Assembly (NCBI GenBank): GCA_000004985.1
Contig: GG738894.1
Source of the DNA: Naegleria gruberi
Lineage: Eukaryota
Length of the DNA: 64,000 nt
Direction: 5' to 3' (one strand)
A model generated the notes under the pieces. That model searched no databases. It was not told the origin of the DNA and saw only the letters and a program-made list of their open reading frames with translations. Made by a program: the position numbers and the translations under genes. Below, piece after piece: positions 25,133-51,628 of the stretch. The stretch's first letter is position 1. Each line of letters starts with the position of its first letter.

Positions 25133-27331
25133 TTAGTGAGTTTCAGTTGTTGTGGTGGTAGCTTCTGTTTGTTGAGATTGTTCGTTTGTTGTTTGATTAG
25201 TGGCAGCACCAATACGTTGTTGAATCATATTAACGACAAAGGCTGGATCAATAACGTGTTCGAAAATTAAACCAGATCTTTCCATACCCTTAGAATTGAC
25301 AGTCTTCAAGTAAATTCTATTGTCTTCAGCCCAAACACTCTTAATCTTTTCATAATTGACACTGACCAAGTTCATTCTCAAACGAAGTGGCAATTCAATA
25401 ACTCTAACAATACGTTCAGAGGTGATCAAATAGTGAACACTTCTTCTCTTGAAGAGAGCAAACCAAGTAATGAGGGCAATAACACCCAAAGTAAAGTACA
25501 AATGCAAGAATCCACTGAAAATCTTGAGTTTGAAAATAGAGATACCAGCATGGAGAGTACCATAGGCAATCAAACCAATAACGAATAAAATAAGGGCAAC
25601 CTTGGCAATGACACACAAGATACGTCCAAACTTTCTCTTACCATTACAAGCACCATGTTTCTTACCGTGACATGAAATATTCTTCTTGGCTGGCTTTTCA
25701 TACAATAAGAGAGTTTCAGTTGCCTTGGTAGCAGTTGATCTCATAAGTTTCCAGAACTTGGACAATCTCTTTTGCAATACTCTTTCTTGACGTGGAGTAT
25801 TTTCCATCTGTAAAGTGGAAGAAGAGAGAAGAGTTCTAGACTTTGGTTCTTTTGGATCTTGAATAATAACAGCTGAAGAGGAAACTTCATCGAGTTTGTA
25901 AACTTCTCCAGTACCTTCAAATGGATTGGCAAAGTATTGTCTAATGAATCTATCACAAGAACGTCTACTCTTACCATCCAAAACCTTAAAACCAATAATT
26001 ACAAAGATTACAGTAATAACTACTGAAAGAATCAAGAAACCTGGAATAGCACAACGAAGACTACGACGGAATCTACGAGCAACAGTTTCACGAGTGGCAA
26101 TAACATCTTCATGGTTCTCATCTCCACGACGATCCTTTTGTGGTTGTCTATTGTCAGCAGGAGCAATTGATGAGGATGGTTGTTGTCCTTGTTTACCAGA
26201 GTCAGGTTTAGCTTGATCGTTTGGTTGACCAGATTGTGGTGGTGCTTGCTGATTATCATTAGATGGTGGTGCTTGTGGCTTTGAGCTTTCTAGGATTCTC
26301 TTTTCACCACGACCAGATTGTGGTGGTTGATGTTTGGAGTATCCTCCATGACCCTTTCCTGGCTTTTCCATATCAAAGAACATGTCCATAACTTCCATCA
26401 TTCTCATTCTGTCTTCATCAATATAGCAAGAAATTTCACCAAGTTTAATAACACGATCTCTGCAATCTAAAGTTTGTTGTTGTAATGGATATGAACAAAC
26501 TCTTGACATGATGAAGGATTTCTTGGCAATCTTTGGTGGTTTAGTGTAAGAGTCTGGTCTTGATCTCATTACATGTCTAATTTCTCTAGTGTGTCTGGCA
26601 TGATTAGCAATTGAATGATGACCAGGATGGAATTCATCATGACCTGGACCACCAGGACCCAAGTTTCTGTGTGCAACTGAAACATTCAATTCGAGATAGT
26701 ACACTCCACGATCATAGTCAAAGTGTACAACAGAGTTATCTTGGTCAGTATTGACCTGGCAAACGCTCTTTCTATAATTTAAATGATTGTCAGCACTCTT
26801 ACCAATAGTTAAGAAGAATGCAATGGAGAGGAAAATAAATAAGAGTGAGAATACCCCAACAGCTCTTGGAATTCTTGTCCAAGTCTTACCCTTTAACGAT
26901 TTCAAAAATCTTTTTTGTTGGGCATGTTTACAATTTCTCCACTTCCAGAGCCATGATCTACGAGGAGCTTGTTCTCTTTGTGGCAATGGAATGGTAGTAT
27001 CTTGATTATTGGTAGTAGTAGTGGATGATGGAATTAAATTTTGGTTCATTGGAACTTCTTGTAATTCAACATCATTATGTACAATTGAAGATGGAATTGA
27101 TGATGAAGGAGGAACGTAATTGAATGGAATTGGATTCATACCACTCCATGGATACATGGTTGGGAGGTTATTTGTAGTAGTTTGATTAGCTGTTGATGGA
27201 GTTGTGGAATTTGGTTGTTGTTGATGAACCGTATAATAGGGAACATATTGAAGATCTTCGGAAGCCCCATTCAATGATGGATATTGGGAAGTTGGTTGTT
27301 GTTGTTGATTATTCATCTTCACTACTAACAA
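25133..27331 (-). CDS. Membrane protein with a C-terminal bPH_2 (DUF304/YdbT-like) PH domain
   Basis: 732-aa ORF: P/S-rich N-terminus, TM segments, a PQ-rich linker, then two adjacent TM helices followed by ITSERIVRVIELPLRLRMNLVSVNYEKIKSVWAEDNRIYLKTVNSKGMERSGLIFEHV, which fits the bacterial-type PH (bPH_2) pattern. Confidence 0.45.
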   Translation of the reverse strand: MLVVKMNNQQQQPTSQYPSLNGASEDLQYVPYYTVHQQQPNSTTPSTANQTTTNNLPTMYPWSGMNPIPFNYVPPSSSIPSSIVHNDVELQEVPMNQNLIPSSTTTTNNQDTTIPLPQREQAPRRSWLWKWRNCKHAQQKRFLKSLKGKTWTRIPRAVGVFSLLFIFLSIAFFLTIGKSADNHLNYRKSVCQVNTDQDNSVVHFDYDRGVYYLELNVSVAHRNLGPGGPGHDEFHPGHHSIANHARHTREIRHVMRSRPDSYTKPPKIAKKSFIMSRVCSYPLQQQTLDCRDRVIKLGEISCYIDEDRMRMMEVMDMFFDMEKPGKGHGGYSKHQPPQSGRGEKRILESSKPQAPPSNDNQQAPPQSGQPNDQAKPDSGKQGQQPSSSIAPADNRQPQKDRRGDENHEDVIATRETVARRFRRSLRCAIPGFLILSVVITVIFVIIGFKVLDGKSRRSCDRFIRQYFANPFEGTGEVYKLDEVSSSAVIIQDPKEPKSRTLLSSSTLQMENTPRQERVLQKRLSKFWKLMRSTATKATETLLLYEKPAKKNISCHGKKHGACNGKRKFGRILCVIAKVALILFVIGLIAYGTLHAGISIFKLKIFSGFLHLYFTLGVIALITWFALFKRRSVHYLITSERIVRVIELPLRLRMNLVSVNYEKIKSVWAEDNRIYLKTVNSKGMERSGLIFEHVIDPAFVVNMIQQRIGAATNQTTNEQSQQTEATTTTTETH

Positions 27332-27971: not shown

Positions 27972-30900
27972 TTAATGCTTGTCACTGGATTTTACCGAAA
28001 GTACAGAAGGACGGGTTGAAGATTTGACAGAGAGTGGAGAGTTTCTGGTATTATTTACATTGTTTGAACTGTTTGTGACTGAGAGCTGTTGTTGGGATTG
28101 TTTGATAGGAGTTGTGTTGACCTGTCTTCCAGTTGTTGTTGATGAGCTTGAACCAGTTGCTGTTGTATTGGATGTGCTTGGAGTACTGGAATACTTTTGA
28201 GAGGTAGTCACAACTTTTCCACTATTAACATTTGTATTGACCTTATTCGTTGCTGTTGGTTGATTAGCAGTTGTAGAACTTGTTGTTGTGGACGTAAGCT
28301 TTGGAACTGTATTGGTTGCAGTTGATTTGTTGGCAGTCTGAGTTGTTGGTTTGACTTCGACTGGTGTGGAGGTAAGTTTTGGAACTGTATTGGTTGCAGT
28401 TGGTTTGTTGGCAGTCTGAGTTGTTGGTTTTACCTCCACTGGTAGTGGTAAAATTTCATTATCTTTCAGAACTGTCTTGGCAGAGGTTGAGGTGAGAATT
28501 TGAGGTTCTTCTCTATTACCACACAATCTATTCTTTCTGCATTTTCCTTTGGCATTGGCACTGATTTCGATACCCCTCTTCTCACTGGTGAAAAGTTTGT
28601 TGAGCATGACGAGAGGGTCCGCATCCGATCCAATATATACATTCGATCCGCTATTGCTAAAAACCTTATTATTTACAATATTTCCGAGTCCTTCCTTTCC
28701 AATCTTGATACCTTCAGCCATGCTATTGTGAATTTGATTATTTTCAATTGTTGGATTTCCACCATCCTTTATAAAAATGTTTGCTTCCAAACTTCCAAAA
28801 ATGTCATTATCAGCAATAGTGCCATGAGCACCTGAATGTATTTGAATTCCAACATGAGGAGAGTCACGAATAGTATTACCAGTAATGGTTGGATCTGCCT
28901 TTTCACAAATTTCCAAAGAAACTCCCTTAAAGGTACACTTTTCGATGGATGCATCACATTTTGATCCCTTCAATTTAACAGTACAATGTGGGAGTTTTCC
29001 AGTTGTTTTGGTATTTGGTTTGTACTCTGAATTGTAAACTATCAAATTTCTAATTTTCGAATATCTGACATTGTCAAAGAGAATGACATCCTCAACATCT
29101 TTTGGTTTGTAAAGAATGGCATGTGATTTTCCTTCCGAAATTCCCTTCAAAAAGACACTTCTGTCAATGAGAATTTGTTCCTTATAAACTCCAGGTCGAA
29201 TATTAATAATTGGTGTTGTGAGTGGTCTGGTTGGTTTGATGATTTTTCTTCCGTCTGATGGCCTCACAATGAAAGGCAAGTTGAATTTTTGCATTAAAAG
29301 TCTCTGCTTATCAACAAGTGAAATGTCAAGATTGGAGAGTGGATTACTCTTGACTGGATTGTTTGTTCCCAACATGACTCCTCCACTCGATCCACAATCT
29401 TCATACTCTCCAATATCTCCCAAATTACCAGTTCTAAAACTACTGGCCTTCTTTAGCGAGCCCGAGTCTGAGAAGGCATTCTTCATGGAACTGGCTGAAA
29501 AGGTTTTTGTCAATGAATGAGATGGTAGTGGCCTCTTTGGTATAATTTTCGTAATATCCATTGGAAGAGCATTGATAGCTGTTTGAATGGATGTATAGTC
29601 TCCCTTTCCATTAATATCTACTGTATATTCGAGTGAGTTTTGGAGAGGAATACTTCTCAATTCGGTCAATATTTGAGAGAAGGTTGGACGTTCGTCTGGA
29701 TCCTGTAAACAACAAGTCGAAACCAATCTAACAAAGCAATCAATAATTGGTGATTCTTGTGCCAATTTTTCAGCATTTTCAATCTTTGGTCTTTGTCCCA
29801 TAATTACCTGTGAAGCTACAGTGAATGGATTTTGAACATCGTGAAATGGAATTAAGTGAGTAATCAACTCGTACATGACCATTCCGAAACTGTAAACGTC
29901 AGCTTTTTCTCCTGAAGATGCTGCAGAACTGAACATTTCCTGTTTTTCAAGTTTCGAATATAATAAGTAAAGTAGTAATATTTGATAATAATTTGTTGCA
30001 TAATTTGAATAATAAATTGATATTAAAAGTCAATGCAAAAATACTTACTGGAGCCATCCATCCAGATGTACCTTTCATACCAGATACTCCTGAATTTCTA
30101 TTTCTCACAGAAGACAATCCAAAATCTGAAATTTTCGAAATCAAATTCTTATCCAACAACACGTTATGACTCTTCAAATCTCTGTGAATGATTGGTTTTG
30201 GTCTCGAGTGCAAATGATGCATTCCTTCGGCAATATCAATGGCAATTTGTAATTTCATTTCATTGCTGAGAATTGGTTGTGATTGGAGGAATTTCTTGTA
30301 CTTGTCTGCTTGTTCATCCTCATCATCCATTGGAGATTCGACAATGGTGAGTCCAGTTCCGAGAAGTTTCTTTGTGGTTGGTGTGATCACTTGTCTATTG
30401 TTTTGTTGATTTGAAGGAGGTTTTAATTTGCCATTCTGTGATGATTCATTGGTTGGTGAGAGTTGAGAAGAGTTTTGTTTCTTGGATTTCATCAGAGGTT
30501 CATAGTCATACTCTGGAAAGGTTGTTTCTAATACTTTATGAAGAGAGAAGGGCAGAAATTCCTATTTTTCAATATTACATTATATATTAATTATATATTA
30601 GAATATTAATATGATGTTGTGTGTTGTTGTTATTAATATTATTCCGAATGATGTTTTCCAATTAATTAAATTAAACATTATAATAACAATTAAATTGTTG
30701 GAAGAAGTTAAACACAAATATAATGGAGAGAAGAGTCATAAGAAGAAGAAGAAATTACACTTAGAAAAGAGAGAAATAATTAAACAACTCACCATAACAA
30801 TATAAACACACTGACTATCATCGGACCAACCAAAAACATTCAAAATATTGGAATGTTGTACTCGTAACATGATGGCAATTTCATTCAAAGTCTCCTTCCA

Positions 30901-34920: not shown

Positions 34921-35703
34921 TTGAATGAAACAACTTCCACATCTCCTCGCTCGCCTATTGAAAACATCAGTCCCGATATAACAAACGATGCTCAGTACAA
35001 TGCTATTGTTAATGCTAAAGATCTAAGGGAAAGTATTAAAATATTAACTTTTACGATGATTGAGATGAAAACAGACGTGCAAAGAGATATGAAAAGTATG
35101 AAGAAAGATATTGCAGAAATCAAAGTGGAAATTACAGAAATCAAAAAAGATATGTATAGCTTGAATAGAAATGTGGGCTGCCTTTACGAAGGCCAAGTGA
35201 AAGCAGAATTTGAGAAGAATTTTCAAGTTGAGTCTCCAAAGATTTTAGAATATGACAAGTTTTCAACTAGATTTGCTGAAGTGTATTCCCAAAATGGTTA
35301 CCTTAATGAATTGGTGAAGAAATTGATAATAGGAAATGTTTTGAGCAAGGAAGAAAAAAGAAAGTTGACCTTGAAAACCTTCAAAGTTGAGCTTAATTTT
35401 GTTCTAACCGACAACTCAAACTCCACAAAAGTCCAAATCATTGAAGCAACCATGTCCTCATTCTCAAATCCTAACAAGTTAATATGTAAATTAGTACAAT
35501 TGGAACGTCAAGTATTGTTTTATAAAGCTTGTTACCCATCTCATACAGTCACTAAAATTGGATTAGTTTCACCATCCGATTTGGATTCAGATATGGTAAA
35601 GGATGCACTTGATAAATACCCAGGATTGGTAGTTGTTAAATCATTTTTAGATGAGGGTAATTTTGAAACTATTAGATTGGGTAATAAGCCAGAGATTTTT
35701 TAA
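34921..35703 (+). CDS. Hypothetical protein (260 aa; the frame stays open upstream to about 34835, inside repeat A)
   Basis: Charged, coiled-coil-like ORF (IAEIKVEITEIKKDMYSLNR). No domain recognised. Confidence 0.4.
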   Translation: MNETTSTSPRSPIENISPDITNDAQYNAIVNAKDLRESIKILTFTMIEMKTDVQRDMKSMKKDIAEIKVEITEIKKDMYSLNRNVGCLYEGQVKAEFEKNFQVESPKILEYDKFSTRFAEVYSQNGYLNELVKKLIIGNVLSKEEKRKLTLKTFKVELNFVLTDNSNSTKVQIIEATMSSFSNPNKLICKLVQLERQVLFYKACYPSHTVTKIGLVSPSDLDSDMVKDALDKYPGLVVVKSFLDEGNFETIRLGNKPEIF

Positions 35704-36008: not shown

Positions 36009-39000
36009 TCAAATAATGGAGTTTATTTCTTCAGTCTTGACGATTGCTCCCACATGATACTTATTGTCCAATAAATAAGTCTGAAGAATTCCCTTTCCTT
36101 TTACTGCGATACTACGCTCCTCAAATGTGAATTCTAAATCAAAAACTCTTTCATATGTTTTTCTTGACAGTTGAATTCTTCCAGGTAAACTAGTGCTTTC
36201 CATCCTACTTGCTGTAGTTATGGAAAGAAAATAAGAAAATCATTAAATAATTATTACCACACTTCAAACTTACCTGTGTTGATATTGTCTCCCCAAAGAT
36301 CGTATGCAAACTTCTTCTTTCCAATCACTCCAGCTGTTACACTTCCTGTGTGTATACCTATTCTAATATTTATCTGTTTTTCAACAGGCTTTCTTGAAGT
36401 AATGTTGTAGTTACGAATAACATTGAAACAATCAATGGAAAATCTAAGAATTCTCTCTGGATGATTAATGTCAACATTGTTTAACCCTGCACAACAAAAG
36501 TAAGAATCACCAATGGTTTTGATTTTTTCCACATTATATTTGTCAGTCAAACCATCAAATCCATCAACCACACAATTCAGTAATTGCACTAACTCTGTAT
36601 GTGTTAATTGTGAGGTCAATGCAGTGAATTCAACCATATCACTAAAGAAACAGGTGACATCTGGGTGTTTCTCCGCAATAAGAGATGCTCCAGCCAAAAG
36701 TTGACGAGCTACAGAGCTAGGTAGAATATTAAGAAGCATATTTTCCGATTTCTTCTTTTCTTCGTTTAGTAATAAAATTGCCTTCTTCTCTAAGGTGGAT
36801 TCTTTGATGAAAAATAATGTAATGTGTTTGTTTTCAAAGAATGTTACATAGATATTGACTGTTGCAGGGAAAGTCTTTTGATTTTTTCTGACACACTCAA
36901 GTTCAAAAGTTTCTCCTTTAGGGCAGGTTTTTGTTACTTGTTTTTTGATGGATTCGACTTCGTTCTTAACCAAAGTTTGGTGTTCTCTTGTGAATATTTT
37001 AATAGGTTTACCAATAACATCTTCGAGTTGATAACCAAACATTCTTTGAGCTGAAGGATTGAAAATATCCACTAGCATTGTATCATTACATGTAATTACA
37101 CCATCAACAAATGTGTTAAGAATTGTCACTAGTTTTGCATCTCGCTCTGACGTGACACCATTGTTGGTAAATAATTTGGATGGGTTTTCATTAGGTAGTG
37201 TTTTAAATAATGCAAAGTTTTTAAGTTTCTCGTTGAACACCAAAGTATCTATCGATAGGTAATCGAACATGATTCTCATTTGTTGTTCTGCATTAGCATA
37301 TTCACGGAAAATGTAATACATCGAACAAATCGAGCAAGTGACAAGTACAAAGCCAATTACAAAACTCGCTATCACATAATTAATATTTGGTACAGAGGCA
37401 TCAACAGCGAAAATATTTGCAAAATCAATCAATTTCATCGATGACAAGTTAAAAAGAAATAAAATCTTAAGTAAGGAAGTAATATGTTCCTTGATAGTCA
37501 CTGGTTGAAATAAAATTGTCTGGGCCAATAAATTTTGTTTCAACAATATTTGTGTTGATAATAATATATGTGTTAGCATTGTATCTATTCCAATGCCACA
37601 AGTGCTGTTAAAATGAGTGTCAGTTTCTGGAATGGTACAATTTGGATCGCCCTTAATCAAGTGGTCTGTACCGGGAAACATGCCTGCAACTACTGATTCA
37701 AAGGGTTTTGTAGTTGATCCGAATAAACACCAATCCCAATTCCTTTGAAGATTTGCTGCCTCTTGATAATATTGAAGAGTCATATTTAAAGCTTCATCCT
37801 CTGTTATCAATGGTATATCGTCAACATTTCTATAATAAGCATATAGTTCAGTACTGTAAAATGCTACATTTTGCAGATGCTTGGTAGTTTCAAATACGTC
37901 TTGTACATTTACAAAGGATTCAACCGAATAATGGGTATTGTCAAACAAGCCACATACGAATACTGCCGTACACACTCCAACTGTTAAAAATATTACTATT
38001 ATCAAAATGGGGAAACATATCTTATGTTTGAGAGGATCTACTTTTCCTGCATGAGTAATCACTTCTTGTGGTTGTTGTTCGCATAATGTGTGGTATATTT
38101 CACCAACTTCTGGTTTAGAGACACACTCTTTCAGTAGCTTGACATGATTTTTCAATCTAGAGAAAGTGAATCTTGAATATATCAAATATAATACACACAC
38201 TATTAACAAGCAAGGTAACACGGCTGCTGTGTAAATGATTAAAACATTCCTCGAATTCAATGCCTCATCTATATGAACTTGTGTGTAAGAATGACAAAAT
38301 AAAGAATATGCCTGTGTAAGGGTATTTTGATTTCTATAAAGAAACATGAACATAAAGGATGTGTAGGTTTGTAGTAAAGCTTCACTTGTTTCTGACAAGA
38401 AGCGATTTGCCAATAGTTTTAAAATCTTATTGATTTGAGAGAGTGGGTACTTGTTTGACTCAGTCAGGTTATATAAACCTCCTCCTGGTATTACAGTTGG
38501 AATTACTAATGAATAGTGGAAATCAGTAAATTGAGAGTAGATTTGAGGTGAAAACTTTGAGGCAAAAGCAACGTTTTCTAAATTGACTATCGATTGTGTG
38601 AAATATTCGACATGCTGTTTGTATTTATCCATGTCAAAATAAATATCATTCGTCCAATTATGTTCGATGGTGATATTTGATTGCATCCAGTGGTCAATAA
38701 TCTGATACCCTCTTCCTGAAAGTAATAAGTTAGTGACACAGGGTATTGTGGCACATGCCTCCTTAGAATGTAGCAAATTGCTTGTTGCTTGATTGGAATA
38801 AATCAGTGACAGCAAGAATGGAGTGATGAGAGCAACCAAGAACAGTATGCAAAAGCCAACAAATAGTATGATAAAAACAGTTCGGCGTGTTGGAGTTGCA
38901 AGAGCATTGCTATAAATCATCTTTCTTGTTTGTGGATCCAGTGTTTCAAATTCTTCTAACGTTTGCTCCTCATTTTCTCTCCCATCAGTGGTAATTTCAG

Positions 39001-42000
39001 ACACAGAAGATTCACCTTCAGCTTTTTTAGTGGATCTGTTGCATTCATTTTCTTCGAGTAAGTTTGCTTTGTTAAAATTCTCATTTGATAATTCTGGATT
39101 TGCTTTAAATGATACCAAATATTGTGCATATATTCTTAGTGCTGTTTTGTCTTGACTATAAAAAGGAACAAGGTTGTTAAATATACAGTCACACTCGGCA
39201 ACTAGCTTGGAGCTTCTAAAAATGACTCTTTCAATTTTTTCCATAATAATACTTTCTTTCAGAAACTCTTTCCAAAAATCCTTATGAAGAGCATAAAGTT
39301 CTTCGGTTTTTCTCCGAATTTTAGACAGTATTAATACCAGTTCTGACTTGGAATCATCTTCACAAAGATACGCCTCAATTTCCTTCTTCTTTTGGCACAA
39401 TGAATACGAAGAAACAAAATTTGCATACTTTGGTGTCATATTTTTTGTTAAAATTGAAAAAGCCAATGTACGTTCACCCTTCGTTTGATATGCCATTATT
39501 GATGCTGATACTAAGGGCAACCTCATACTGCTGTTTAAATCTTGTAAGGTTGCCTTGATAAATGCTATTATCCCTGAATGATACTTGCTTCGTTTAGGTC
39601 CTTTCATCATTTCAAACTTTAAAAAAAGACCCAATAGGTAAACAATTCTATCATCTTGGAGATTTAAGTTTTTTGAGACTGTATATGTTCCAGTGTCTGG
39701 TTCTTCTTTAAAAAACTTGTTCTTAAATTTATACATATTGTATCTTGTATAACATTCCATTGTCACACATCCAATTAAAGCCATCAATAGCATCAACCCC
39801 AGAGTAGCTGAAAACAATATTATTCCAAGAGTGTTATCGTTGGTCACATTGACAAAATATGTCACAAGACCAGATACACTTGTGGCCAGTCTACAGAAAA
39901 TGATACCACTAATAACAGTATTTTCAAATCTTCTTAGCATTGGTATTGTTTGAAAAACAAGTATTATCAATAGTAGAGTCGAAATTATGTGTACAATAGA
40001 TCTTAAATATGCCGTGTACGGAGGAATTAGATGATGAATGACAATCCCAACAACATTGCACAACGGAATAGTGGCCTGAAAGATAATATTGTCATTTAGC
40101 ATTGGGGAGTTGCTTAATGGATGAGAATTTGGTAGAATCAATATTGATAGACCAAGTACAATTATAAAAACAACTATTGAAAGCAATGATAATATCATCA
40201 GAGGAATGTTGATAGAATCGAAACAAGGGGAACCTGGGAATCGATTCAACACCATTCCATTAGGTGCCCGACTAAATGGAATAACTACAGCAAGTGGTTC
40301 AGGTTGCGTCAAGCCATAACTGCAGTCTACAAAGGAAGTTAACACGTATGTGACAGGTGCCGAGATCAATAAACAAGTGTAACATAGAATATGTACCACT
40401 TTTTTCAGGAGCTTCCTCCTGCTACTTACTCTTTTCACAGCAGTATTAGCCAAAATAAAACAGCACACAATTGCCACAATAGTGATCATAAAAAATACAG
40501 CAAGACCAAGGTTAGCATAATATGGAAATGTCCATGATGCAAGAGTTATTGGAAAGTTCAAAACTTTGATGATCCAACTAGCCCATACTCCAAATCTGAA
40601 AGACACTGGATTTAGTAACGGTATCCATACAAAACACCAAAACAATACAAGCTGTACGATGAGTTGCTTAAGAAACTCAATGGTTCCTTTTCTAATTTTG
40701 TTTGCCTGCATTGCAAACAAGAAGATAAAAAACTCATTCGCTATGGCAGACCCAAACTCTGATGATAGAGTAGAGCTCTGGCAAGTAATAGATGTAGAAA
40801 ATCCGTTTTGTTTTTTTTCATCCTTGTTTGTGTCCTTAGTTTTGTTTGGTTTCTCAATACTGATGGCTCCATTATGCTGAAGTCTTATATAGCCTTGCAT
40901 TTCGATTTCAAACTTTGCATTGTCTAATTCAACTTCTTGTCTCAAATCATTTGGTATGAGATTATTATCCACATTGTTAATATTCAACTTTGGGTCTCTT
41001 CTGCTGTACATGAGCATGTAAGCATTTGTGGAATCGCCAATAATCTCATCATTTCCATACATGGATTCTATTTGAGATTTATCAATTTCATCAATATAAT
41101 TATCATTAAATTTAAACCATTTCCCTGAATGGAACGATCTTATTAACACAAAGTAATGCTTTAAAAAAGGTCACTAAAAAGCTAGCTATTTTACATACCC
41201 CTGTAAGTGCATCTCCAGAATGAATGATAACACTATAAAGATCAAATAAATGTTGCTGATCATCTACATATTTTGACATGTCCAACACAAAGGGAAAGGT
41301 AACTTTGTTTCCAAGCTAATACTACAATTACATTAATATGAACAAGTTCATACTTACCTTGACAGGAGTATTTGTTTGATAATCAACCCTCTTGAGTTGA
41401 AGTGTTAAAATGTAGGGAAGATGAGCCAATTTTAAATTCTTGACCGCATCTATTTTCTTATTTCCAAGCTCCTCACAACACCATTGATTATCTCCCTTCA
41501 TTTCCTCAGATTTTAAAAAACTTTCAATGGCCTCCTCGACACTGGACACATCCCGAATAGCCAATTGCAAATCCATAAAACTGTCCACTTTGGTGGTTTG
41601 ATATACTTCACCACTTTGTTTCTTCTCATCCACAGACTCGATATGATCTATTACAGTGCCACAAAACAGGTCGCTGAAGGATACATTGCTATCGTTATTG
41701 TAATTTTTTTGTGGTGGTGATGAATCAGTTTCTTTAGAATGGGATCCGTCAGTCAGCACGTCGAACAAGATCCTAAACACTTCATGAATATCGTGTTGAA
41801 CTTTTAAATCTGATGCTTGCCAGCCTAAGCATAGAAAAATTTTCGCACACGAATCAATCATATTATGTGTTGATAATGAAATCTAAGGACAATCGAAAAC
41901 TTACCAAATGAATTTGTTAACTGTGTGGTGTCCACTGAGTTTCTCTTTGATAAAGTCAAATAGGCAAACAAGCGTTGCAATTGATAAGGGACGCAATGGT

Positions 42001-42211
42001 CCTGGTCAGGATCATGCTCAGGATCGTACCTCCATTTGAAAACCAACTCACGAAATTTTGGTGTGTGATGCAGAGATTGTAGTAGAGAATTTAAATAACA
42101 TGTGGTTCCATTATTGGTGAGGCCAACAAAATGCTCTTCCTCTTGTGCACTACAAGATTGACGCCAGTTGGTGTTGGATGGTCCACTTGATGTTTCGTGG
42201 TTGTACTGCAT
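36009..42211 (-). CDS. USP-type deubiquitinase domain fused to a multi-TM module, an extracellular loop domain, PAS and a class III adenylyl/guanylyl cyclase domain (receptor-type cyclase A); five exons
   Basis: Exon 1 (42211-41905) gives ...GLTNNGTTCYLNSLLQSLHHTPKFRE (USP Cys box). Exon 2 (41824-41358) gives GWQASDLKVQHDIHEVFRILFDVL...NQWCCEELGNKKIDAVKNLKLAHLPYILTLQLKRVDY. Exon 3 (41315-41200) gives LGNKVTFPFVLDMSKYVDDQQHLFDLYSVIIHSGDALTG. Exon 4 (41160-36275) gives HYFVLIRSFHSGKWFKFNDNYIDE (USP His box), then with no intervening stop about 12 TM helices, a roughly 430-aa loop between two TM helices, PAS (VTILNTFVDGVITCNDTMLVDIFNPSAQRMFGYQLEDVIGKPI) and cyclase (FFSDMVEFTALTS...KIKTIGDSYFCCAGL...IRIGIHTGSVTAGVIGKKKFAYDLWGDNINT). 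Exon 5 (36211-36009) gives ASRMESTSLPGRIQLSRKTYERVFDLEF...*. Introns are 39-83 nt, with GTAAGT/GTATGT donors. Confidence 0.8.
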
Positions 42212-42524
42212 GGTGATGTAAATTGTACTTTGTTTAAGTGGCGTTCCTCCTATTTTAATTGAAATTGAGACTTTAGTGTGACAAATTTATTATCTAATCT
42301 ATTTTGGTAAAATTGTAAAAATAGTAATTAGACTTCCGTAAAAAGTTGCGTCTTTTTGAAGGTACAAAATACTTTCACGGTAAACACTGCTTGGAACACA
42401 AAATCTGAGCAACACTCAAACTGTTTTCAAACAATTCTTCCAAGGTAAACTGCAAACAAACCAACTGCCGCTTAGTGCAAACTCTTAAATTGATTAAATC
42501 TCTGGTTCCAAAAACCAAATGTTT

Positions 42525-42650
42525 TCCATTGAGTAGGGTGGAAATCATTCCCTCGTTTAATTGTTAATTATTTGAAAGGGCATTAAAAAGGAATTGGATT
42601 TGTGACAGTTATTAAGGAGTTGATCATTAATATTAAATTCCAAAAAAAAT
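42525..42650 (+). repeat. Direct repeat R, copy 2 (immediately 5' of the ATG at 42649)
   Basis: See 35805-35950. Confidence 0.8.
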
Positions 42651-43558
42651 GAAACGACAACAAACCTGCGCTAATCCAGAAGAAAAAAGCGAAAAACGCT
42701 CCAAACACAACGATCAAGCGAAAATTGTAACCTTGCAGATGGATGAGGCTTTGGCGGGAAAAAATTCTAGCCTCTTATTCAGTAAGAAGACGAAGAATAT
42801 TGAAATGACAATTCATTTGAACGGAATGGAGTGTCATGAAGGGATACTTTCCACCATATTTGATTTTCTGGATGTGAAAGATTTGCAATTTATTAAATCA
42901 GTATCATGGAAATGTTATGAATTGGTGCTTGCTGATAATTCAAGATATGCACAGAGAATGAGGGAGGAGTTTCCAATATATTGTAAAAGATTGGAGTATT
43001 TGAATGAGTTTGCTGAAGGTTTGATGATAAAGTGGCTGAAGAGGAGATTTGTGAAAAGACATGGCGAGAGATTATTATGGTAGATTGTGGAGAAATCAAA
43101 CGGGAATCATGAGAAGGTTGTTGAAATTATTGTGAATTATGGATTGTTTGATCTTATTGAAATATTATCTGATGAGTTTCTAAATGCTAGACTTGCATTA
43201 TATGAATGTGGAAAGAAGATAGATGAGTTTGAAAGTCTCTTTGAAGGTAAGCTATTTAATTGTGTTTGCCATCCCTAAAATGTGTACAGATGATTATGGC
43301 CTGTTTGCAATAAGTGAAATCATTTCACAGGGGGAGGAGTTCTATAAAAAGGTTATTGCTAAACCTGAGCTTGGTAAATCAGCACTTCGATACGGATATG
43401 AGGAATACATGTATTGTTTCCATTCTCTCTATTACATTCCAACTCAAAACTATATTGCAGAAAACGAAATTCAGTACGAAAGAAGAAAACAAAAAACCAT
43501 CAAAGCACTTATTGAAGGGTATGATGTTTTTAAGAATTTCAATCCTATCTATTGTTAG
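42649..43558 (+). CDS. Hypothetical F-box-like protein (ECHEGILSTIFDFLDVKDLQFIKSVSWKCYELV); an in-frame TAG at 43081-43083 and one intron
   Basis: ORF 42649-43083 and ORF 43087-43278 lie in the same frame, separated only by TAG. A 43-nt intron (GTAAGC at about 43249, ...TGTACAG at about 43291) then joins ...SLFEG to DDYGLFAISE...NFNPIYC*. Confidence 0.45.
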
Positions 43559-47303: not shown

Positions 47304-49998
47304 ATGTCCTCATCGAATAACAATAGCAAAACAATACGTTTCTTTTCGGATACCAATTCGAATACACTTATCAGAAACTCACCATCCAACAATACAAACT
47401 TAAAGGACAACTCTAATCCCATCCTCTCCATCACCACCACCACAACTCCCAACAACAACAAATCCACCACTCAATCTCCTCACCATTTAGACTTTCAACT
47501 TTCTCCAAGTACTTTACAAAACACTCGCAAATTCTCCCTCAACAAGGATATATTAATTTCCATGATCAATAATTCATCTACATCTGCTACATCTCCATCC
47601 TCTTCATCTATAAATTCTCCTTCATCATCTTCATCATCATCACAACAATTAAATAATAATTTTTCATCATCAAATAATTTATTCAATTCCGTTGATCCGG
47701 ATTCGAGGAGGCGGAGTAGTGGCGGAGAAAATATTAATATCGGTAGTGGTAATGGTAGTGGTAATAATAATGCGAGTGTTAATAGTTTGGGAGGTGCAGG
47801 GAATAATTCAGTTCTCTTTTTGAATTTGGACGAAAGATTGGCCATGCAAACACAGAATGAATTGAATTCTTCGAGACCGATCAATCATCAGAGGAATAGA
47901 CATAAGGGATCTGGTGGTATTTCTGAATATTCATTTACGGTGGATGATTTGATATTGCCAAATAGTGATATATCATCACCTAGATTGGCAATTTCAAGTA
48001 ATTTAAATTCGAATATTGTTTCTTCTAATGTTTCGAATGCGAAGAGTCCAACTCCTCATTCAAAATCAAATTCAACGACTACAGCTACCTTTGTACCATA
48101 TATTTCTCCTTTAAATACTTCGAATAGTTTGGAAAGTAATGAATTGGGAACTACAGAATTTGTCAATTTGGATCTCACTTCAATTTTACCTCATGGAAAA
48201 TTATTGAGATTCTTCCTTGTGAATAATCAGGACTATTTCACAGACACTGTCCAATTGAGAAAACACAGCCCCGTCATTGCTCAGGAAATTGATTTCCAGC
48301 AACGATTGAATGAATTTGAAAATCAAAACACTGGATTCTTTTCAGATATTTCCATTAGATTTGTACCGAGTGGAAGAGAGATTCGTGCCCATAAATTCAT
48401 TCTCTCCATGTATAGTCCCGTGTTGGCTACACTGTTTAGTTCGAGATGGAAGGAAACTCATGATAATGTCATTGAGGTTTTGACTGAAGTTAGTAATCAG
48501 AGTGGTGGTGGTGTAAATTTTGAGGAGGTTGACGATGAGCAATTATTTGTGGAAATGATTCTCTGCATGTATAGTGGTCAGATTTATCAAGTGGAGCAAC
48601 ATTTAATTGTTCCATTGTTGGAGTTATCTGACAAGTATCAATTTACAGAATTGTCGAGAGCTTGTGAGGAGTATTTGAGAGTTCACTTGAATGAACACAA
48701 TTGCATTTCATTGCTCTATCTTGCCAATGGAATTTCCATTGAGAATACTCTTCAATCCTCTGCAAATACGAGACTTTCCATTTCATCAACAACTGGAAGC
48801 AAGTATTCAAAGGGAAAGTTTGATCGATTGAAAGAGAGAGCACTCGCCTACATTGATACACATTTCGAGTTGGTTTCCAAGACCAAGGCATTCCTCTTTT
48901 TAGATGTTAACATGTTGATTTTCCTCCTTAATCGTGGTGAGCTCAGAGTTGATTCTGAGGATGTCATTCTCAGTGCCATTTTAAATTGGTGTGATGGTGA
49001 TCTGTGCAATAGGAGAGAACTCTTATTCTCAACTCTATTGGAACATGTTCGATTGTACCACCTCTCTCCCAATCGATTGGCTCATTTGGGTGAAGTATTG
49101 GAAAGGTACACTGGAACATTGGAGAATTCCTCTCTCATGATGCCATGGATGAATAGAATCATGCAAGCCATGTCCTATCAAATGTCTCACACTCTCGGTT
49201 TCCAACTCTCTCAGAGTATGCAACAGAAAATTGCACTCGAATGTCCTCCAAGAAAGAGAGCTACTCAAGATATTACAAGAATTTCAAATTTATTATCACA
49301 GGAGCAATTTTTACAAATTGCAGAGTGGATTAATGAGCAAGGAAAGCAAGGATTGATGAAGGATGTTTCTGAAAGGTTTGTTTCCATTTTCCCACTCTAA
49401 TTGATTAATTTTCTAATAATTTTTTGTAAATATATACTTCACACATTTTACAAATATTTCACACAAATACAATCTCAAACTAATCAGAGAATGGCTACTT
49501 CTCTACAGAGGAACAAGGGATGGTTTTCAAGGTAAAGCTTTCCATGCCAAATGTGATGGAAAAGGTCCAACTTTTTGTGTCATTAAAACAGATAAGGGAT
49601 TTCTATTTGGAGGATTCACATCCAAGAGTTGGCACAGTAACAACACTGATGAGAGTGACGAATGTGCATTTTTATATTCTCTCTACAATCCCTATCTGAA
49701 CAACAAAATGACAAGATTTAAAATCAAACCTGGAATGTCAGCTGCCATTGGATGTTATGCAAACTTTGGAGTAATTTTTGGTGGAGGAAGAGATTTAATT
49801 CTCTATTCTGAAAGTAATATTAACAATTCGAGTCATTGTGAATTCTTTGGCCACACTTATCAATTACCAAATTTAGCAGGAGTTTGCTATGGATCTCTGA
49901 AGAGTAAAACCTTCTTCAATGGAACTGAACAGTTTAGAGTGAATGATTGTGAAGTTTTTGGATTAGTTCCATCCTCAAATAAATTCCTTACCAAGTAA
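47304..49998 (+). CDS. BTB/POZ-BACK protein with a C-terminal TLDc domain; two exons (47304-49375, 49488-49998)
   Basis: S/N-rich N-terminus. BTB is SDISIRFVPSGREIRAHKFILSMYSPVLATLFSS...; the BACK-like region is ...LIFLLNRGELRVDSEDVILSAILNWC.... A 112-nt intron (GTTTGT...AATCAG, phase 2) joins ...KDVSE-R-EWLLLYRGTRDGFQGKAFHAKCDGKGPTFCVIKTDKGFLFGGFTSKSW...FGGGRDLILYSES...EVFGLVPS, a classic TLDc signature. Confidence 0.7.
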
Positions 49999-50740: not shown

Positions 50741-51628
50741 TTACTTTTTCATATCCAAAAGGACAAATTCAGTCATTGAATTCACTCCCTCAATGAATAA
50801 TTCCTCTTCAGTGGATGAATCTGAATGAATGAAACAACCATCTCCTTCTTTCAATGTTACAATTTCTTGATTGTTTCCATGAGAAAGTTTGATTGAAATT
50901 GGGTTTTCTAAATTTGGTGATTTGAATAGTTTCATTTTCAGATAATTGGAAATGAAAGGGTTAGCTTTACGAAGTAAAGAAGAAAACAAACCATTTAGTT
51001 TAGAATCTTCAACTGAAGATGATCCAATTCTACTCATAATTGGAACGTGAATATAAATTTGACGACCAGGTTGCAAAGTATGATTGACTTTCTTTCCAGA
51101 TTCCAATAAACTTGAAAGTACATAAATATCTTGATCAATTCCAATAAATTCTTCACTCAATTTGGCACTTTCGTTTGGAACAATCATTAAACGCAATTGA
51201 TTCAGTTTTTGTTCTGGTGTGAAATCTTTCGTTTGATAATTTGGTTTCGAATTGAAATTTCGAGGTTTCACCCAAATTTGTAAGAATTTGACATGCTCAT
51301 TCTTATCCCTATTAAACTCACTGTGATAAACTCCACTTCCAGCTGAAGTAAACTGAACTGAACCCTTCTTACAAACTTCTGTATTTCCCATAGAATCTGA
51401 ATGAGTCAAATTTCCAGACAAGATATACGAAAATATTTCATAATTCTGATGAGGATGCATTGGAAATCCGCTTGATGGCTCCACTGTATCTTCATTCAAT
51501 ACTCTCAATGGTCCGAATTGAGTAAACTTTTGATTTCGATAGCTTGAAAAGGAAAATGTGTGGTAGGTATCAAGCCAGCCTTCATCATAGTGTCCTCTTT
51601 CTTCTGATGGTCTAATTTCAAATTTCAT
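50741..51628 (-). CDS. Pirin-family cupin protein (YhhW/quercetinase-like)
   Basis: GFPMHPHQNYEIFSYILSGNLTHSDSMGN fits the pirin N-terminal cupin motif HPHRGFETVTYvleG. The 295-aa length suits a bicupin. Confidence 0.8.
   Translation of the reverse strand: MKFEIRPSEERGHYDEGWLDTYHTFSFSSYRNQKFTQFGPLRVLNEDTVEPSSGFPMHPHQNYEIFSYILSGNLTHSDSMGNTEVCKKGSVQFTSAGSGVYHSEFNRDKNEHVKFLQIWVKPRNFNSKPNYQTKDFTPEQKLNQLRLMIVPNESAKLSEEFIGIDQDIYVLSSLLESGKKVNHTLQPGRQIYIHVPIMSRIGSSSVEDSKLNGLFSSLLRKANPFISNYLKMKLFKSPNLENPISIKLSHGNNQEIVTLKEGDGCFIHSDSSTEEELFIEGVNSMTEFVLLDMKK

What the first reader, a model, noticed from the sequence alone, without database searches (positions are those of the whole stretch)
36009..42211. 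Deubiquitinase (USP) domain fused in frame to a membrane PAS-cyclase
A complete USP catalytic core sits at the N-terminus of this gene. The Cys box (NGTTCYLNSLLQSL), the QQD region (VQHDIHEVFRILFDVL), the KRVDY motif and the His box (HSGDALTG/HYFVLIRSFHSGKWFKFNDNYIDE) are all present. The His-box exon then continues, with no stop codon for about 4.9 kb, into roughly 12 TM helices, a large loop between two TM helices, a PAS domain and a class III nucleotidyl cyclase domain. Ubiquitin-hydrolase and cAMP/cGMP-synthesis activities on one polypeptide is not a domain combination I know from described cyclases, which fuse to kinase, ATPase-like, CHD or response-regulator modules. The neighbouring paralog (52528-57928) has the same TM-PAS-cyclase body without USP, so the USP looks like a lineage-specific N-terminal accretion. 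Functionally it could couple second-messenger synthesis to deubiquitination of the receptor itself or its partners.
Basis: partly seen in the sequence, partly recalled or inferred. Interest (0 to 1): 0.85.

Follow-up and report, generated by a model that had tools for sequence, protein, structure and literature searches.

The report
Deubiquitinase fused to membrane adenylate cyclase
In the amoeba Naegleria gruberi, a copy of the front half of the USP47 deubiquitinase gene has joined in frame to a 12-pass membrane PAS-adenylate cyclase gene, giving one 1992-residue protein that the public annotation misses and that has no counterpart among the relatives I could examine.

Summary
The window is Naegleria gruberi NEG-M. 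On the minus strand, five exons (42211-36009) with four GT..AG introns of 80, 42, 40 and 62 nt give a 1992-aa protein. It consists of a full USP47-type catalytic domain, a ~32-aa linker, 8 TM helices, a cytosolic TmcB-type TPR region, 4 TM helices with two ~190-aa outer loops, a PAS domain and a class III cyclase with adenylate-type residues.

The second half of the His box lies in the same uninterrupted 4.9-kb exon as the cyclase body, so the fusion does not depend on any intron call. An independent metagenome contig from another strain (98.6% identical) has the same junction, splice sites and open frame. Between the two strains dN/dS is 0.06 in the USP part.

Introns 2 and 3 sit exactly where the stand-alone N. 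lovaniensis USP47 gene has its introns, so the USP arose by partial gene duplication. The public model (XP_002672936.1, 1122 aa) lacks the first 870 residues.

None of the 125 relatives of the membrane body has a USP, and none of the 120 best USP relatives has a cyclase. No transcript data were available.

The most likely function, by inference only, is a tethered deubiquitinase that protects the cyclase from ubiquitin-dependent removal.

The parts
36009..42211 (-). Whole USP47-cyclase fusion gene: 5 exons, CDS 5979 nt, 1992 aa, stop codon at 36011-36009
   Evidence: Assembled and translated without an internal stop. The same model is intact in the independent contig L001.
41905..42211 (-). 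Exon 1: start ATG (42211-42209), N-terminal tail and the Cys box with catalytic Cys38 (42100-42098)
   Evidence: The ATG and an upstream in-frame stop are present in both strains.
41825..41904 (-). Intron 1, 80 nt, GTAAGT..TTAG, phase 1
   Evidence: Conserved in L001. It has no counterpart in the N. lovaniensis USP47 gene.
41358..41824 (-). Exon 2: QHD region, fingers and KRVDY motif of the USP domain
41316..41357 (-). Intron 2, 42 nt, phase 0, contains an in-frame TAA. Its position (..PVK|LGN..) matches the intron after codon 316 of N. lovaniensis USP47.
41199..41315 (-). Exon 3: palm strands up to ..HSGDALTG (first half of the His box)
41159..41198 (-). Intron 3, 40 nt, phase 0. Its position (..LTG|HYF..) matches the intron after codon 357 of N. 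lovaniensis USP47.
36274..41158 (-). Exon 4, 4885 nt. It carries the catalytic His298 and Asn315/Asp316, the end of the USP47 homology, the linker, all 12 TM helices, the TPR region, the PAS domain and most of the cyclase domain. This single exon contains the fusion junction.
   Evidence: Uninterrupted ORF, coordinates, identical structure in L001
40841..42136 (-). USP47-homologous region, aa 26-403: catalytic domain (Pfam UCH 29-348) plus the following helix at 367-393
   Evidence: BLASTP against N. gruberi USP47, 50% identity over q26-403. Best PDB sequence match USP47 8itn, E 1e-65. AF2 pLDDT 87-94. Best Foldseek matches 8itp/8itn.
40745..40840 (-). Linker, aa 404-435, rich in Lys, Ser and Thr, predicted to be disordered. 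It lies between the end of USP47 homology and the start of homology to the cyclase-body paralogs.
   Evidence: No differences between the two strains here.
39749..40684 (-). TM block 1, aa 456-767, 8 predicted membrane helices
   Evidence: Hydropathy and the positive-inside rule. A low-confidence AF2 model shows helices at all eight positions. Homologous to P0122 and to N. fowleri FDP41_001627.
38882..39748 (-). Cytosolic region, aa 768-1056, with the TmcB-type TPR repeats (Pfam 908-1002 = 39328-39044). The public gene model starts inside it at Met871 (39439-39437).
37319..38881 (-). TM block 2, aa 1057-1577: 4 membrane helices (1057-1075, 1269-1287, 1348-1366, 1559-1577) framing two outer loops of about 190 aa (1076-1268 and 1367-1558). 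Each loop has 3 Cys and 3-4 N-glycosylation sequons.
36803..37135 (-). PAS domain, aa 1639-1749
   Evidence: Pfam PAS_9, 50.5 bits against a cut-off of 27; Pfam PAS, 27.8 against 22.6
36066..36676 (-). Class III cyclase catalytic domain, aa 1792-1974, interrupted by intron 4. Key residues: metal-binding Asp1804 and Asp1848, Lys1844 and Asp1917 (adenine-specifying), Asn1924 and Arg1928.
   Evidence: Pfam, 174 bits. Alignment to AC9 C1 and C2. Residue positions.
36212..36273 (-). Intron 4, 62 nt, phase 1, at ..NINT|ASRMES... The closest N. fowleri relative has an exon boundary at the same place.
36009..36211 (-). Exon 5: end of the cyclase domain and the stop codon
52528..57928 (+). Neighbouring paralog: the same TM-TPR-TM-PAS-cyclase body, 1747 aa, 4 exons, no USP. 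It is context, not part of the fusion gene.

Best explanation
SHOWN. This is one protein-coding gene of Naegleria gruberi encoding a 1992-aa multi-pass membrane protein. From the N-terminus it has a USP47-type cysteine deubiquitinase domain with all catalytic residues, a ~32-aa flexible linker, 8 TM helices, a cytosolic TmcB-type TPR region, 4 TM helices with two ~190-aa outer loops, a PAS domain and a class III cyclase domain. The cyclase domain has the full residue set of a homodimeric adenylate cyclase.

The gene arose when a DNA-level duplicate of the 5' part of USP47 (introns included, breakpoint about 106 codons into USP47's last exon) joined in frame to the first exon of a TmcB-type PAS-cyclase gene. 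The duplicate replaced that gene's short N-terminal tail. Every part of the gene, and the USP most of all, is under purifying selection between two strains.

INFERRED. The USP, TPR, PAS and cyclase all face the cytosol. The cyclase is a receptor-type enzyme, gated through its outer loops and/or its PAS domain.

The tethered USP has lost the UBL domains that boost USP47 activity. It is therefore likely to be a weak deubiquitinase that depends on being close to its substrate. It would act mainly in cis, on its own chain or on the partner chain of the dimer, or on proteins bound to the cyclase. By stripping ubiquitin it would protect the receptor-cyclase from ubiquitin-dependent endocytosis and lysosomal sorting, which would prolong or stabilise cAMP signalling.
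For: Gene integrity. The 5979-nt CDS has four GT..AG introns. The second half of the His box and the whole cyclase body share one 1631-codon ORF (chance of staying open about 3e-54).

Independent assembly. ENA contig ERZ929261 k127_410922 (L001) is 98.6% identical and has the same exons, the same splice sites and an open 5979-nt CDS. All 4 indels between the strains lie in the 5' flank and none in the CDS (Fisher P 2e-7).

Selection. dN/dS is 0.06 in the USP (8 synonymous, 2 non-synonymous; binomial P 6.5e-5). It is 0.19 in the unannotated residues 1-870 and 0.16 in the annotated part. Neutral drift to the observed 51% identity with the parent never kept the frame open: 0 of 1000 runs, about 15 stops on average.

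Domain identity. Pfam hits. USP47 is the best sequence and fold match. All 62 invariant alignment columns are kept, including N33, C38, H298, N315 and D316. The AF2 model has pLDDT 87-94 over residues 27-393, with the linker disordered. The six cyclase catalytic residues are present.

Origin. Introns 2 and 3 are at exactly the positions and phases of the two introns of N. lovaniensis USP47. N. gruberi keeps a separate full-length USP47, XP_002679670.1.

Body family. P0122 aligns from fusion residue 436 to 1991. N. fowleri FDP41_001627 aligns from 436 to 1988.

Topology. Hydropathy and the positive-inside rule give 8 + 4 helices, with weak support from the model.

Mechanism by analogy. The isolated USP47 catalytic domain is active but weaker than the full-length enzyme, and its triad aligns only when ubiquitin binds (PMC10516900). 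DUB catalytic domains fused experimentally to yeast membrane cargo abolish that cargo's ubiquitination and vacuolar sorting. The effect needs catalytic activity, and co-expressed cargo is unaffected (PMC3172180).
Against: There is no transcript, EST or proteomic evidence that USP and cyclase are on one mRNA or one polypeptide. None could be retrieved.

The public annotation starts the gene at Met871, although homology shows that this model is truncated.

An internal promoter or alternative splicing could also produce USP-less or cyclase-less isoforms.

The fusion is known from one species only, in two strains 1.4% apart. That is a shallow comparison with few substitutions per region; for example, the linker has none.

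The helix count in TM block 1 rests on hydropathy and a low-confidence model (pLDDT 55). An odd count would put the USP and the cyclase on opposite sides of the membrane.

The USP differs from other USP47s at several nearly invariant positions (Q34N, Q116H, F249V, Y300F) and lacks the activating UBL domains, so its activity could be very low.

The cis-protection mechanism is purely inferential.
Confidence: 0.6

Rival explanations
1. The gene is fused as described, but the USP works in the other direction or in trans. One version: it is a membrane-anchored deubiquitinase whose activity on partner proteins is gated by the receptor (ligand or PAS state, or local cAMP). Another version: it serves as a ubiquitin-binding sensor that changes cyclase output when ubiquitinated proteins bind. 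In neither version is its main role to protect its own polypeptide.
For: The catalytic residues and the ubiquitin-binding fold are intact. The USP47 triad aligns only on ubiquitin binding, which is a conformational switch that could be coupled to the rest of the protein (PMC10516900). The USP is the most constrained part of the gene (dN/dS 0.06), which suggests more than a generic protective role. DUB domains fused to ESCRT subunits or to Rsp5 do act on neighbouring proteins (PMC3172180).
Against: The ~32-aa linker is predicted to be disordered, which argues against tight allosteric coupling between the USP and the membrane body. The substrate-recruiting and activating UBL region of USP47 is absent. 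In the engineered cargo fusions the effect was restricted to the tagged cargo.
Confidence: 0.22
2. There are two separate expression units. A truncated USP47 paralog is expressed on its own, ending through an undetected splice or polyadenylation event. The cyclase is transcribed from an internal promoter. The shared open frame would then be incidental.
For: No transcript data are available. The public model XP_002672936.1 begins internally at Met871. The 33-codon stretch spanning the linker would stay open by chance with probability about 0.08. Met457 could serve as an internal start.
Against: In both strains there is no stop codon between the His box and the end of the cyclase. There are no indels anywhere in the CDS, while the 137-nt 5' flank has four. 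Homology to the body paralogs begins at residue 436, upstream of Met457 and far upstream of Met871, so a separate cyclase would lack conserved N-terminal sequence. A stand-alone USP would need a stop codon, and the sequence offers none.
Confidence: 0.1
3. The USP part is a decaying partial duplicate (pseudogene remnant) that happens to lie upstream of the cyclase and contributes no function.
For: It lacks the C-terminal two thirds of USP47. It sits on a long branch with only 51% identity to the parent. It has substitutions at some nearly invariant USP47 positions.
Against: In 1000 neutral-drift simulations to 51% identity none kept an open frame. All invariant and catalytic positions are retained. 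Splice sites are intact in both strains. dN/dS is 0.06, with no amino-acid change in the catalytic domain between strains. The predicted fold is confident.
Confidence: 0.04
4. Assembly chimera: the reference scaffold wrongly joins a USP47-like locus to a cyclase locus.
For: None beyond the unusual architecture. The junction lies within a single exon.
Against: An independent MEGAHIT metagenome contig from a different strain (82 mismatches over 6514 bp) spans from upstream of the ATG to beyond the stop codon in the same order and frame.
Confidence: 0.01

Closest known systems
USP47 (peptidase C19 family, USP7/USP47 subfamily), in particular N. gruberi USP47 XP_002679670.1
   Same: The catalytic domain and the helix that follows it are homologous: 50% identity over 378 aa. 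USP47 gives the best sequence and fold matches in the PDB. The Cys, His and Asn/Asp residues are the same. Two intron positions are shared with a stand-alone Naegleria USP47 gene.
   Different: It lacks the whole C-terminal UBL region of about 665 aa, which in USP47 and USP7 raises activity and recruits substrates. That region is replaced by a 12-TM PAS-cyclase. It sits on a long branch with substitutions at several nearly invariant positions. The N-terminal tail is shorter (25 aa against about 81 aa).
Naegleria TmcB-type membrane PAS-adenylate/guanylate cyclases, e.g. N. gruberi XP_002670952.1, N. fowleri FDP41_001627 and the paralog at 52528-57928 in this window
   Same: The body is the same from residue 436 to the C-terminus: an 8-TM block, a TPR_TmcB region, a 4-TM block with two large loops, PAS and a class III cyclase. 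Identity is 30-36% over about 1550 aa. An intron position in the cyclase domain is shared.
   Different: These proteins begin with a low-complexity tail of about 70 aa. None of the 125 family representatives has a USP or room for one.
Chimeric protist cyclases with a second enzymatic or transport module, such as the P4-ATPase-guanylate cyclases of alveolates
   Same: The principle is the same: a class III cyclase on one polypeptide with a large multi-pass membrane module and a second, unrelated domain type. P0129 and P0131 have this architecture, and it is reviewed in PMC13466520 (listed).
   Different: The partner there is a flippase-like ATPase and is widely conserved. Here the partner is a ubiquitin protease, known from a single species.
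Membrane-anchored USPs (human USP30 and USP19), from my own knowledge and not tested here
   Same: A USP catalytic domain is held at a membrane by a transmembrane segment of the same polypeptide and faces the cytosol.
   Different: Those have a single TM anchor and no second enzymatic activity. Here the anchor is a complete receptor-type cyclase.
Engineered DUB-cargo fusions (Stringer and Piper 2011, PMC3172180)
   Same: A DUB catalytic domain covalently tethered to a multi-pass membrane protein. Experimentally this blocks the cargo's own ubiquitination and lysosomal sorting. It is the functional model for what this natural fusion may do.
   Different: Those are artificial constructs in yeast using Ubp7, UL36 or M48 domains at the C-terminus. 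No natural receptor with this design is described there.

Membership tests
Peptidase C19 (USP/UBP deubiquitinases) | Full-length match to the UCH profile above Pfam's gathering score | tested here: met
   PF00443: 180.9 bits against a cut-off of 23.9, profile positions 1-254 of 254, residues 29-348
Peptidase C19 (USP/UBP deubiquitinases) | Cys box with the catalytic Cys and the oxyanion Asn; His box with the catalytic His; third catalytic Asn/Asp | tested here: met
   N33, C38, H298 and N315/D316 fall in columns that are invariant across 22 USP47 proteins
Peptidase C19 (USP/UBP deubiquitinases) | Thumb-palm-fingers USP fold | tested here: met
   AF2 pLDDT 87-94 over residues 27-393. Foldseek top matches are the USP47 and USP7 catalytic domains, TM 0.80-0.88 normalised to the target. 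This is a prediction, not a solved structure.
Peptidase C19 (USP/UBP deubiquitinases) | Ubiquitin isopeptidase activity | not testable with these tools
   Needs a Ub-AMC or di-ubiquitin cleavage assay on recombinant residues 1-403
USP47 orthologs (as opposed to a USP47-derived domain) | C-terminal tandem UBL region following the catalytic domain | tested here: not met
   Homology to N. gruberi USP47 stops at query residue 403 (subject residue 474 of 1139). No USP47 C-terminal sequence occurs anywhere in the 64-kb window. The genome has a separate full-length USP47. This is therefore a USP47-derived paralogous domain, not a USP47 ortholog.
Class III nucleotidyl cyclases | Match to the cyclase catalytic-domain profile above the gathering score | tested here: met
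   PF00211: 174 bits against a cut-off of 21.9, profile positions 3-182 of 183. Best PDB matches are AC9, AC8 and AC5.
Class III nucleotidyl cyclases | Two metal-binding Asp, a substrate-specifying pair and the transition-state Asn/Arg, all in one domain (the homodimeric type) | tested here: met
   D1804, D1848; K1844 and D1917 (the adenine-type Lys/Asp pair); N1924, R1928. The assignment as adenylate cyclase follows from established residue rules, not from an assay.
Class III nucleotidyl cyclases | Dimerisation and cAMP synthesis | not testable with these tools
   Needs an enzyme assay on the cytosolic PAS-cyclase fragment
TmcB-type membrane proteins / Naegleria membrane PAS-cyclases | TPR_TmcB region between two multi-pass membrane blocks, and end-to-end homology with family members | tested here: met
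   PF25474: 37.3 bits against a cut-off of 27. Alignment of 1550-1700 aa with P0122 and N. fowleri FDP41_001627. The family has 125 representatives.
PAS domain | Profile match above the gathering score | tested here: met
   PAS_9: 50.5 against 27; PAS: 27.8 against 22.6. Cofactor or ligand not determined.

The most novel reading that the evidence does not exclude
This is a natural self-deubiquitinating receptor: a ligand- or PAS-gated membrane adenylate cyclase that carries its own USP domain. That domain would either make the receptor resistant to ubiquitin-dependent down-regulation or couple the receptor's state to deubiquitination of nearby proteins. Second-messenger synthesis and ubiquitin removal would then be two outputs of one transmembrane sensor. 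I found no described signalling protein with this design.
Probability: 0.35. Interest if true: 0.75.

Novelty: new variant of a known kind. Interest (0 to 1): 0.62.

Why it matters
Three reasons.

1. It corrects a public gene model. XP_002672936.1 (D2VSH1) lacks 870 N-terminal residues, including eight membrane helices and a whole enzyme domain.

2. It documents, with intron-level detail and a second strain, how a new multi-enzyme signalling protein arises. A partial duplicate of a housekeeping deubiquitinase was captured in frame by a member of a rapidly expanding receptor-cyclase family and then kept under strong purifying selection.

3. If the tethered USP acts as inferred, this is a natural version of a trick cell biologists engineered on purpose, fusing a DUB to a membrane cargo to shield it from ubiquitin-dependent sorting. 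It would show that receptor lifetime can be hard-wired into the receptor itself.

It also makes a clean experimental system: a single point mutation (Cys38Ala) should separate the two activities.

The limits are that it occurs in one species and in one gene of a very large family, and that there is no expression or biochemical evidence yet.

Tried and rejected
1. I looked for the missing USP47 C-terminal (UBL) part elsewhere in the window, which would have suggested a cyclase inserted into USP47 or a mis-join. tblastn found nothing.

2. I tried to fetch the annotated N. gruberi loci for P0121 and P0003 with the look-up of encoding contigs. Neither is on record. I therefore could not see how NCBI annotates the USP exons or compare introns with N. 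gruberi's own USP47, and used N. lovaniensis USP47 instead.

That search was wasted. The second search was also insensitive for the same reason, with only 14 hits.

5. A scan of JGI metagenome contigs with a peptide spanning the junction gave 37 loci. All matched only the USP part, within query residues 1-119, so there are no further junction-bearing contigs.

6. A mixed USP plus TM alignment (A1) was misaligned by MAFFT and discarded.

7. The TM-block AF2 model has low confidence (pLDDT 55, 4 sequences). I used it only for helix segmentation.

8. Flanking genes of the closest N. fowleri relative are not syntenic with the window, so orthology could not be established.

9. Dating the duplication failed. 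Quartet site counts were 6/7/6, and the NJ placement may be a long-branch effect.

10. Literature searches for the fusion, the project accession PRJEB11402 and the protein accessions found nothing.

11. I considered and rejected the pseudogene remnant and the assembly chimera.


Full report
WHAT IS THERE

The interval 36009-42211 carries one minus-strand gene. With explicit splice sites the coding sequence is 42211-41905, 41824-41358, 41315-41199, 41158-36274 and 36211-36009. That is 5979 nt, encoding 1992 aa with no internal stop. The four introns (80, 42, 40 and 62 nt) are all GT..AG.

Pfam finds the following:
- a full-length UCH (peptidase C19) domain at residues 29-348 (E 4e-53, profile 1-254 of 254)
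- TPR_TmcB at 908-1002
- PAS_9 at 1649-1749
- Guanylate_cyc at 1792-1974 (E 3e-51)

The decisive point needs no intron call. The second half of the His box (HYFVLIRS...WFKFNDNYIDE, with catalytic His298 and Asn315/Asp316) lies in the same uninterrupted 1631-codon ORF (36254-41149) as all the membrane helices, the PAS domain and most of the cyclase domain. At this base composition, about 7% of random codons are stops. The two other sense frames of the CDS hold 136 and 166 stops.

WHOSE GENOME, AND WHAT THE PUBLIC RECORD SAYS

A search with the body alone returned a 100% identical protein, XP_002672936.1 / EFC40192.1 / D2VSH1, named 'PAS domain-containing guanylate cyclase' of Naegleria gruberi NEG-M. 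It is only 1122 aa and begins at Met871 of my model. The public model therefore lacks the USP, the linker, the first membrane block and part of the TPR region.

No public protein matched the USP exons or TM block 1 at high identity. The best hits for the USP part are stand-alone USP47-like proteins of 1139-1168 aa from N. fowleri, N. lovaniensis, N. gruberi (XP_002679670.1, on another scaffold) and Willaertia magna. They are 50-53% identical and cover only 18-19% of the query. None of the 120 best hits carries a cyclase domain.

ANATOMY OF THE JUNCTION

BLASTP against N. gruberi USP47 aligns query residues 26-403 with subject residues 82-474 and then stops. The stand-alone enzyme continues for about 665 more residues. 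No trace of that C-terminal region exists anywhere in the 64-kb window.

Homology to the cyclase-body paralog XP_002670952.1 (P0122) starts at query residue 436, which corresponds to its residue 72, and runs to the C-terminus (30% identity, 664 bits). The two homology blocks are thus separated by only about 32 residues rich in Lys, Ser and Thr. The USP has replaced the roughly 70-aa low-complexity tail that paralogs carry.

The paralog 10 kb away in the window (52528-57928, +) has the same body without a USP. Its introns are 44, 50 and 63 nt, so very short introns are normal in this genome.

IS THE FUSION REAL? AN INDEPENDENT ASSEMBLY

The 90% cluster of the public protein contains a 1602-aa member called on a 7,010-bp ENA metagenome contig (ERZ929261, run ERR1078381, MEGAHIT k127_410922). 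That length is exactly the long exon read from its first ATG.

The contig (L001) spans from upstream of the start codon to beyond the stop codon. It is 98.6% identical to the window, with 82 mismatches over 6514 bp, so it comes from a different strain. The five-exon model transfers exactly:
- the same GT..AG sites and the same intron lengths
- a 5979-nt open CDS
- the start ATG and an in-frame stop upstream of it, in both strains
- all four indels between the strains in the 137-nt 5' flank and none in the CDS

An assembly chimera can be set aside.

SELECTION

Between the two strains:

| Region | dN/dS |
|---|---|
| USP47-like region | 0.06 (8 synonymous, 2 non-synonymous) |
| TM block 1 | 0.24 |
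| TPR region | 0.50 |
| TM block 2 with the outer loops | 0.16 |
| PAS plus cyclase | 0.17 |
| Whole gene | 0.17 |
| Unannotated residues 1-870 | 0.19 |
| Annotated part (871-1992) | 0.16 |

Both non-synonymous changes in the USP region lie at residues 387-388, outside the catalytic domain.

The excess of synonymous changes is significant for the USP (P 6.5e-5) and for residues 1-870 (P 5e-6).

Independently, simulated neutral drift of the USP coding sequence down to the observed 51% identity with its parent never preserved the frame. In 1000 runs there were at least 5 stops every time, about 15 on average. The USP part is therefore translated and constrained. Because it has no stop codon of its own in either strain, the simplest reading is that it is translated together with the body.

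ORIGIN

The stand-alone USP47 gene of N. lovaniensis (locus L004) has two introns, both in phase 0. One follows codon 316 (..TRIK|LGNMVTF..) and one follows codon 357 (..SALGG|HYYAYIK..). These are exactly the homologous positions and phases of introns 2 (..TPVK|LGNKVTF..) and 3 (..DALTG|HYFVLIR..) of the fusion.

This validates the 42- and 40-nt intron calls independently. It also shows that the USP part is a DNA-level partial duplicate of USP47, not a retrocopy. The breakpoint lies about 106 codons into USP47's last exon, and that exon fragment is now continuous with the first exon of a cyclase gene.

On a distance tree the fused USP is a long branch, sister to the Naegleria plus Willaertia USP47 clade. 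It carries 8 of the 12 states that define that clade, but quartet site counts are 6/7/6. The duplication therefore happened within this lineage, and its date is unresolved.

IS THE ARCHITECTURE FOUND ELSEWHERE?

An exhaustive HMMER search of 1.84 billion representatives with the body (residues 420-1600) found only 125 relatives. The closest are N. fowleri FDP41_001627, N. lovaniensis C9374_013611 and C9374_009222, other N. gruberi paralogs, and Willaertia.

A USP profile run against all 125 finds nothing; the best score is 3.9 bits. Thirty-four of them have the cyclase domain. The offsets between query and hit positions leave at most about 120 residues ahead of the body.

In the N. fowleri genome the closest relative matches the fusion only from residue 436 onward (35.6% identity). 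The next gene lies about 180 nt upstream on the other strand, and no USP-like sequence occurs in the 25-kb locus.

A scan of JGI metagenome contigs with a peptide spanning the junction gave only USP-only matches. The paper library holds no report of a USP-cyclase fusion and no mention of the accession.

Within what these tools can see, the combination is unique to this N. gruberi gene.

ARE THE DOMAINS COMPETENT?

USP. All 62 columns that are invariant in an alignment with 22 USP47 proteins from heteroloboseans, animals and oomycetes are retained, including N33, C38, H298, N315 and D316. The best solved relative by sequence is USP47 (8itn, E 1e-65). An AlphaFold model built on that alignment has pLDDT 87-94 over residues 27-393, with a long helix at 367-393 after the catalytic domain. 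Residues 394-456 have pLDDT below 50. Its best structural matches are the USP47 catalytic-domain crystals 8itp and 8itn (TM 0.80 normalised to the target) and then USP7. The fusion does differ at some nearly invariant USP47 positions, for example Q34N, Q116H, F249V and Y300F.

Cyclase. Alignment with both halves of AC9 shows both metal-binding Asp (D1804, D1848), the Lys/Asp pair that specifies adenine (K1844, D1917) and the transition-state Asn/Arg (N1924, R1928). By the established residue rules for class III cyclases this is a homodimeric adenylate cyclase, so the public name 'guanylate cyclase' is probably generic.

TOPOLOGY (INFERRED)

Hydropathy detects seven helices in block 1 and four in block 2. 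A further, weaker segment lies at about 655-675. The positive-inside rule supports it: there are basic clusters before TM1, after TM2, after TM6 and after TM8. Together these give 8 + 4 helices. That places the N-terminal USP, the TPR region, the PAS domain and the cyclase in the cytosol. It places the two ~190-aa loops, each with 3 Cys and 3-4 glycosylation sequons, outside.

A low-confidence model (pLDDT 55, four sequences) shows helices at all eight proposed positions of block 1, plus two amphipathic helices. This step is not secure.

HOW IT MOST LIKELY WORKS

Shown: one open, conserved, spliced reading frame that encodes both enzymes.

Inferred: the body is a receptor-type adenylate cyclase, gated by its outer loops and/or its PAS domain.

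The USP is held on a flexible tether about 30 residues from the first membrane helix, beside the cytosolic loops, the TPR region and the cyclase of its own chain and of its dimer partner. Published work shows two relevant things about USP47. The isolated catalytic domain is active but less so than the full-length enzyme. Its catalytic triad is misaligned until ubiquitin binds (PMC10516900).

A weakened deubiquitinase at very high local concentration is what one would expect of an enzyme that acts mainly on its own carrier. There is a direct experimental analogy. DUB catalytic domains fused to the yeast membrane proteins Ste3, Fur4 and Gap1 abolish ubiquitination of those proteins, keep them at the cell surface and stabilise them. 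The effect requires catalytic activity, and co-expressed cargo is unaffected (PMC3172180).

I therefore favour cis-protection of the receptor-cyclase against ubiquitin-dependent endocytosis and lysosomal sorting. The main functional rival is action in trans on partner proteins, or ubiquitin sensing that modulates the cyclase. The very strong constraint on the USP would fit that rival too.

WHAT REMAINS OPEN

No transcript or protein evidence could be retrieved, so isoforms from an internal promoter or from alternative splicing cannot be excluded. The comparison between strains is shallow (1.4% divergence). Neither the distribution in unannotated Naegleria genomes nor the date of the fusion could be established.

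VERDICT

This is a real, selected and so far unannotated gene fusion of a USP47-derived deubiquitinase with a TmcB-type membrane PAS-adenylate cyclase in N. gruberi. It is a new variant built from two known kinds. It is interesting to specialists in ubiquitin and cyclic-nucleotide signalling and in protist genome evolution, but it is known from one species and its function is untested.

Noticed in passing
window 39437-41158 and 41199-42211 (-): The public N. gruberi model XP_002672936.1 (D2VSH1, 1122 aa) starts at Met871 of the real gene. The 870 residues upstream (USP, linker, eight TM helices and part of the TPR region) have no public protein, although they are open, homologous to paralogs and under purifying selection.
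   Followed up: yes
window 52528-57928 (+): Neighbouring paralog of the cyclase body: 1747 aa, 4 exons, introns of 44, 50 and 63 nt. None of its intron positions matches the fusion gene, but its last intron (..STYE|RVFD..) matches an exon boundary in the N. fowleri relative. It did not appear among the hits, so I did not check whether it is correctly annotated.
   Followed up: partly
window 47304-49400 (+): A 698-aa ORF with BTB and BACK domains, the architecture of Cullin-3 substrate adaptors (ubiquitin ligase side). It lies about 5 kb from the USP-cyclase gene. The proximity may be coincidental.
   Followed up: no
window 27972-29936 (-): A 654-aa ORF that combines the C-terminal part of a protein kinase domain (profile positions about 174-259) with right-handed beta-helix / NosD repeats. 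The kinase N-terminal part presumably lies in an upstream exon. I did not examine this architecture further.
   Followed up: no
window 42212-42348 (5' flank of the fusion gene), compared with L001: The 137 nt upstream of the ATG diverge 5.8% between the two strains and hold all four indels. Exons diverge 0.65-2.0%, and the introns have only 2 mismatches in 224 nt. The introns are thus no more divergent than the exons, though the numbers are small.
   Followed up: partly
L002 19045-21840 (-), N. fowleri VFQX01000027.1: About 4 kb from the closest N. fowleri relative lies another cyclase gene with a different sensor module: OpuAC (substrate-binding domain) plus Guanylate_cyc, 898 aa. It illustrates how freely Naegleria cyclases swap N-terminal modules.
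   Followed up: no
window 50741-51628 (-) and 59874-62120 (-): Ordinary neighbours: an intronless pirin-family protein (295 aa) and an AAA+ ATPase with two ATPase regions (748 aa). Several long ORFs (10964-12508, 25133-27331, 58003-59808, 34921-35703, 42649-43083) have no Pfam match.
   Followed up: no
cluster of P0121: The 90% identity cluster of the cyclase also lists a 43-aa JGI 'hypothetical protein' (P0135) with no obvious relation to the cyclase sequence. It is probably a clustering artefact.
   Followed up: no
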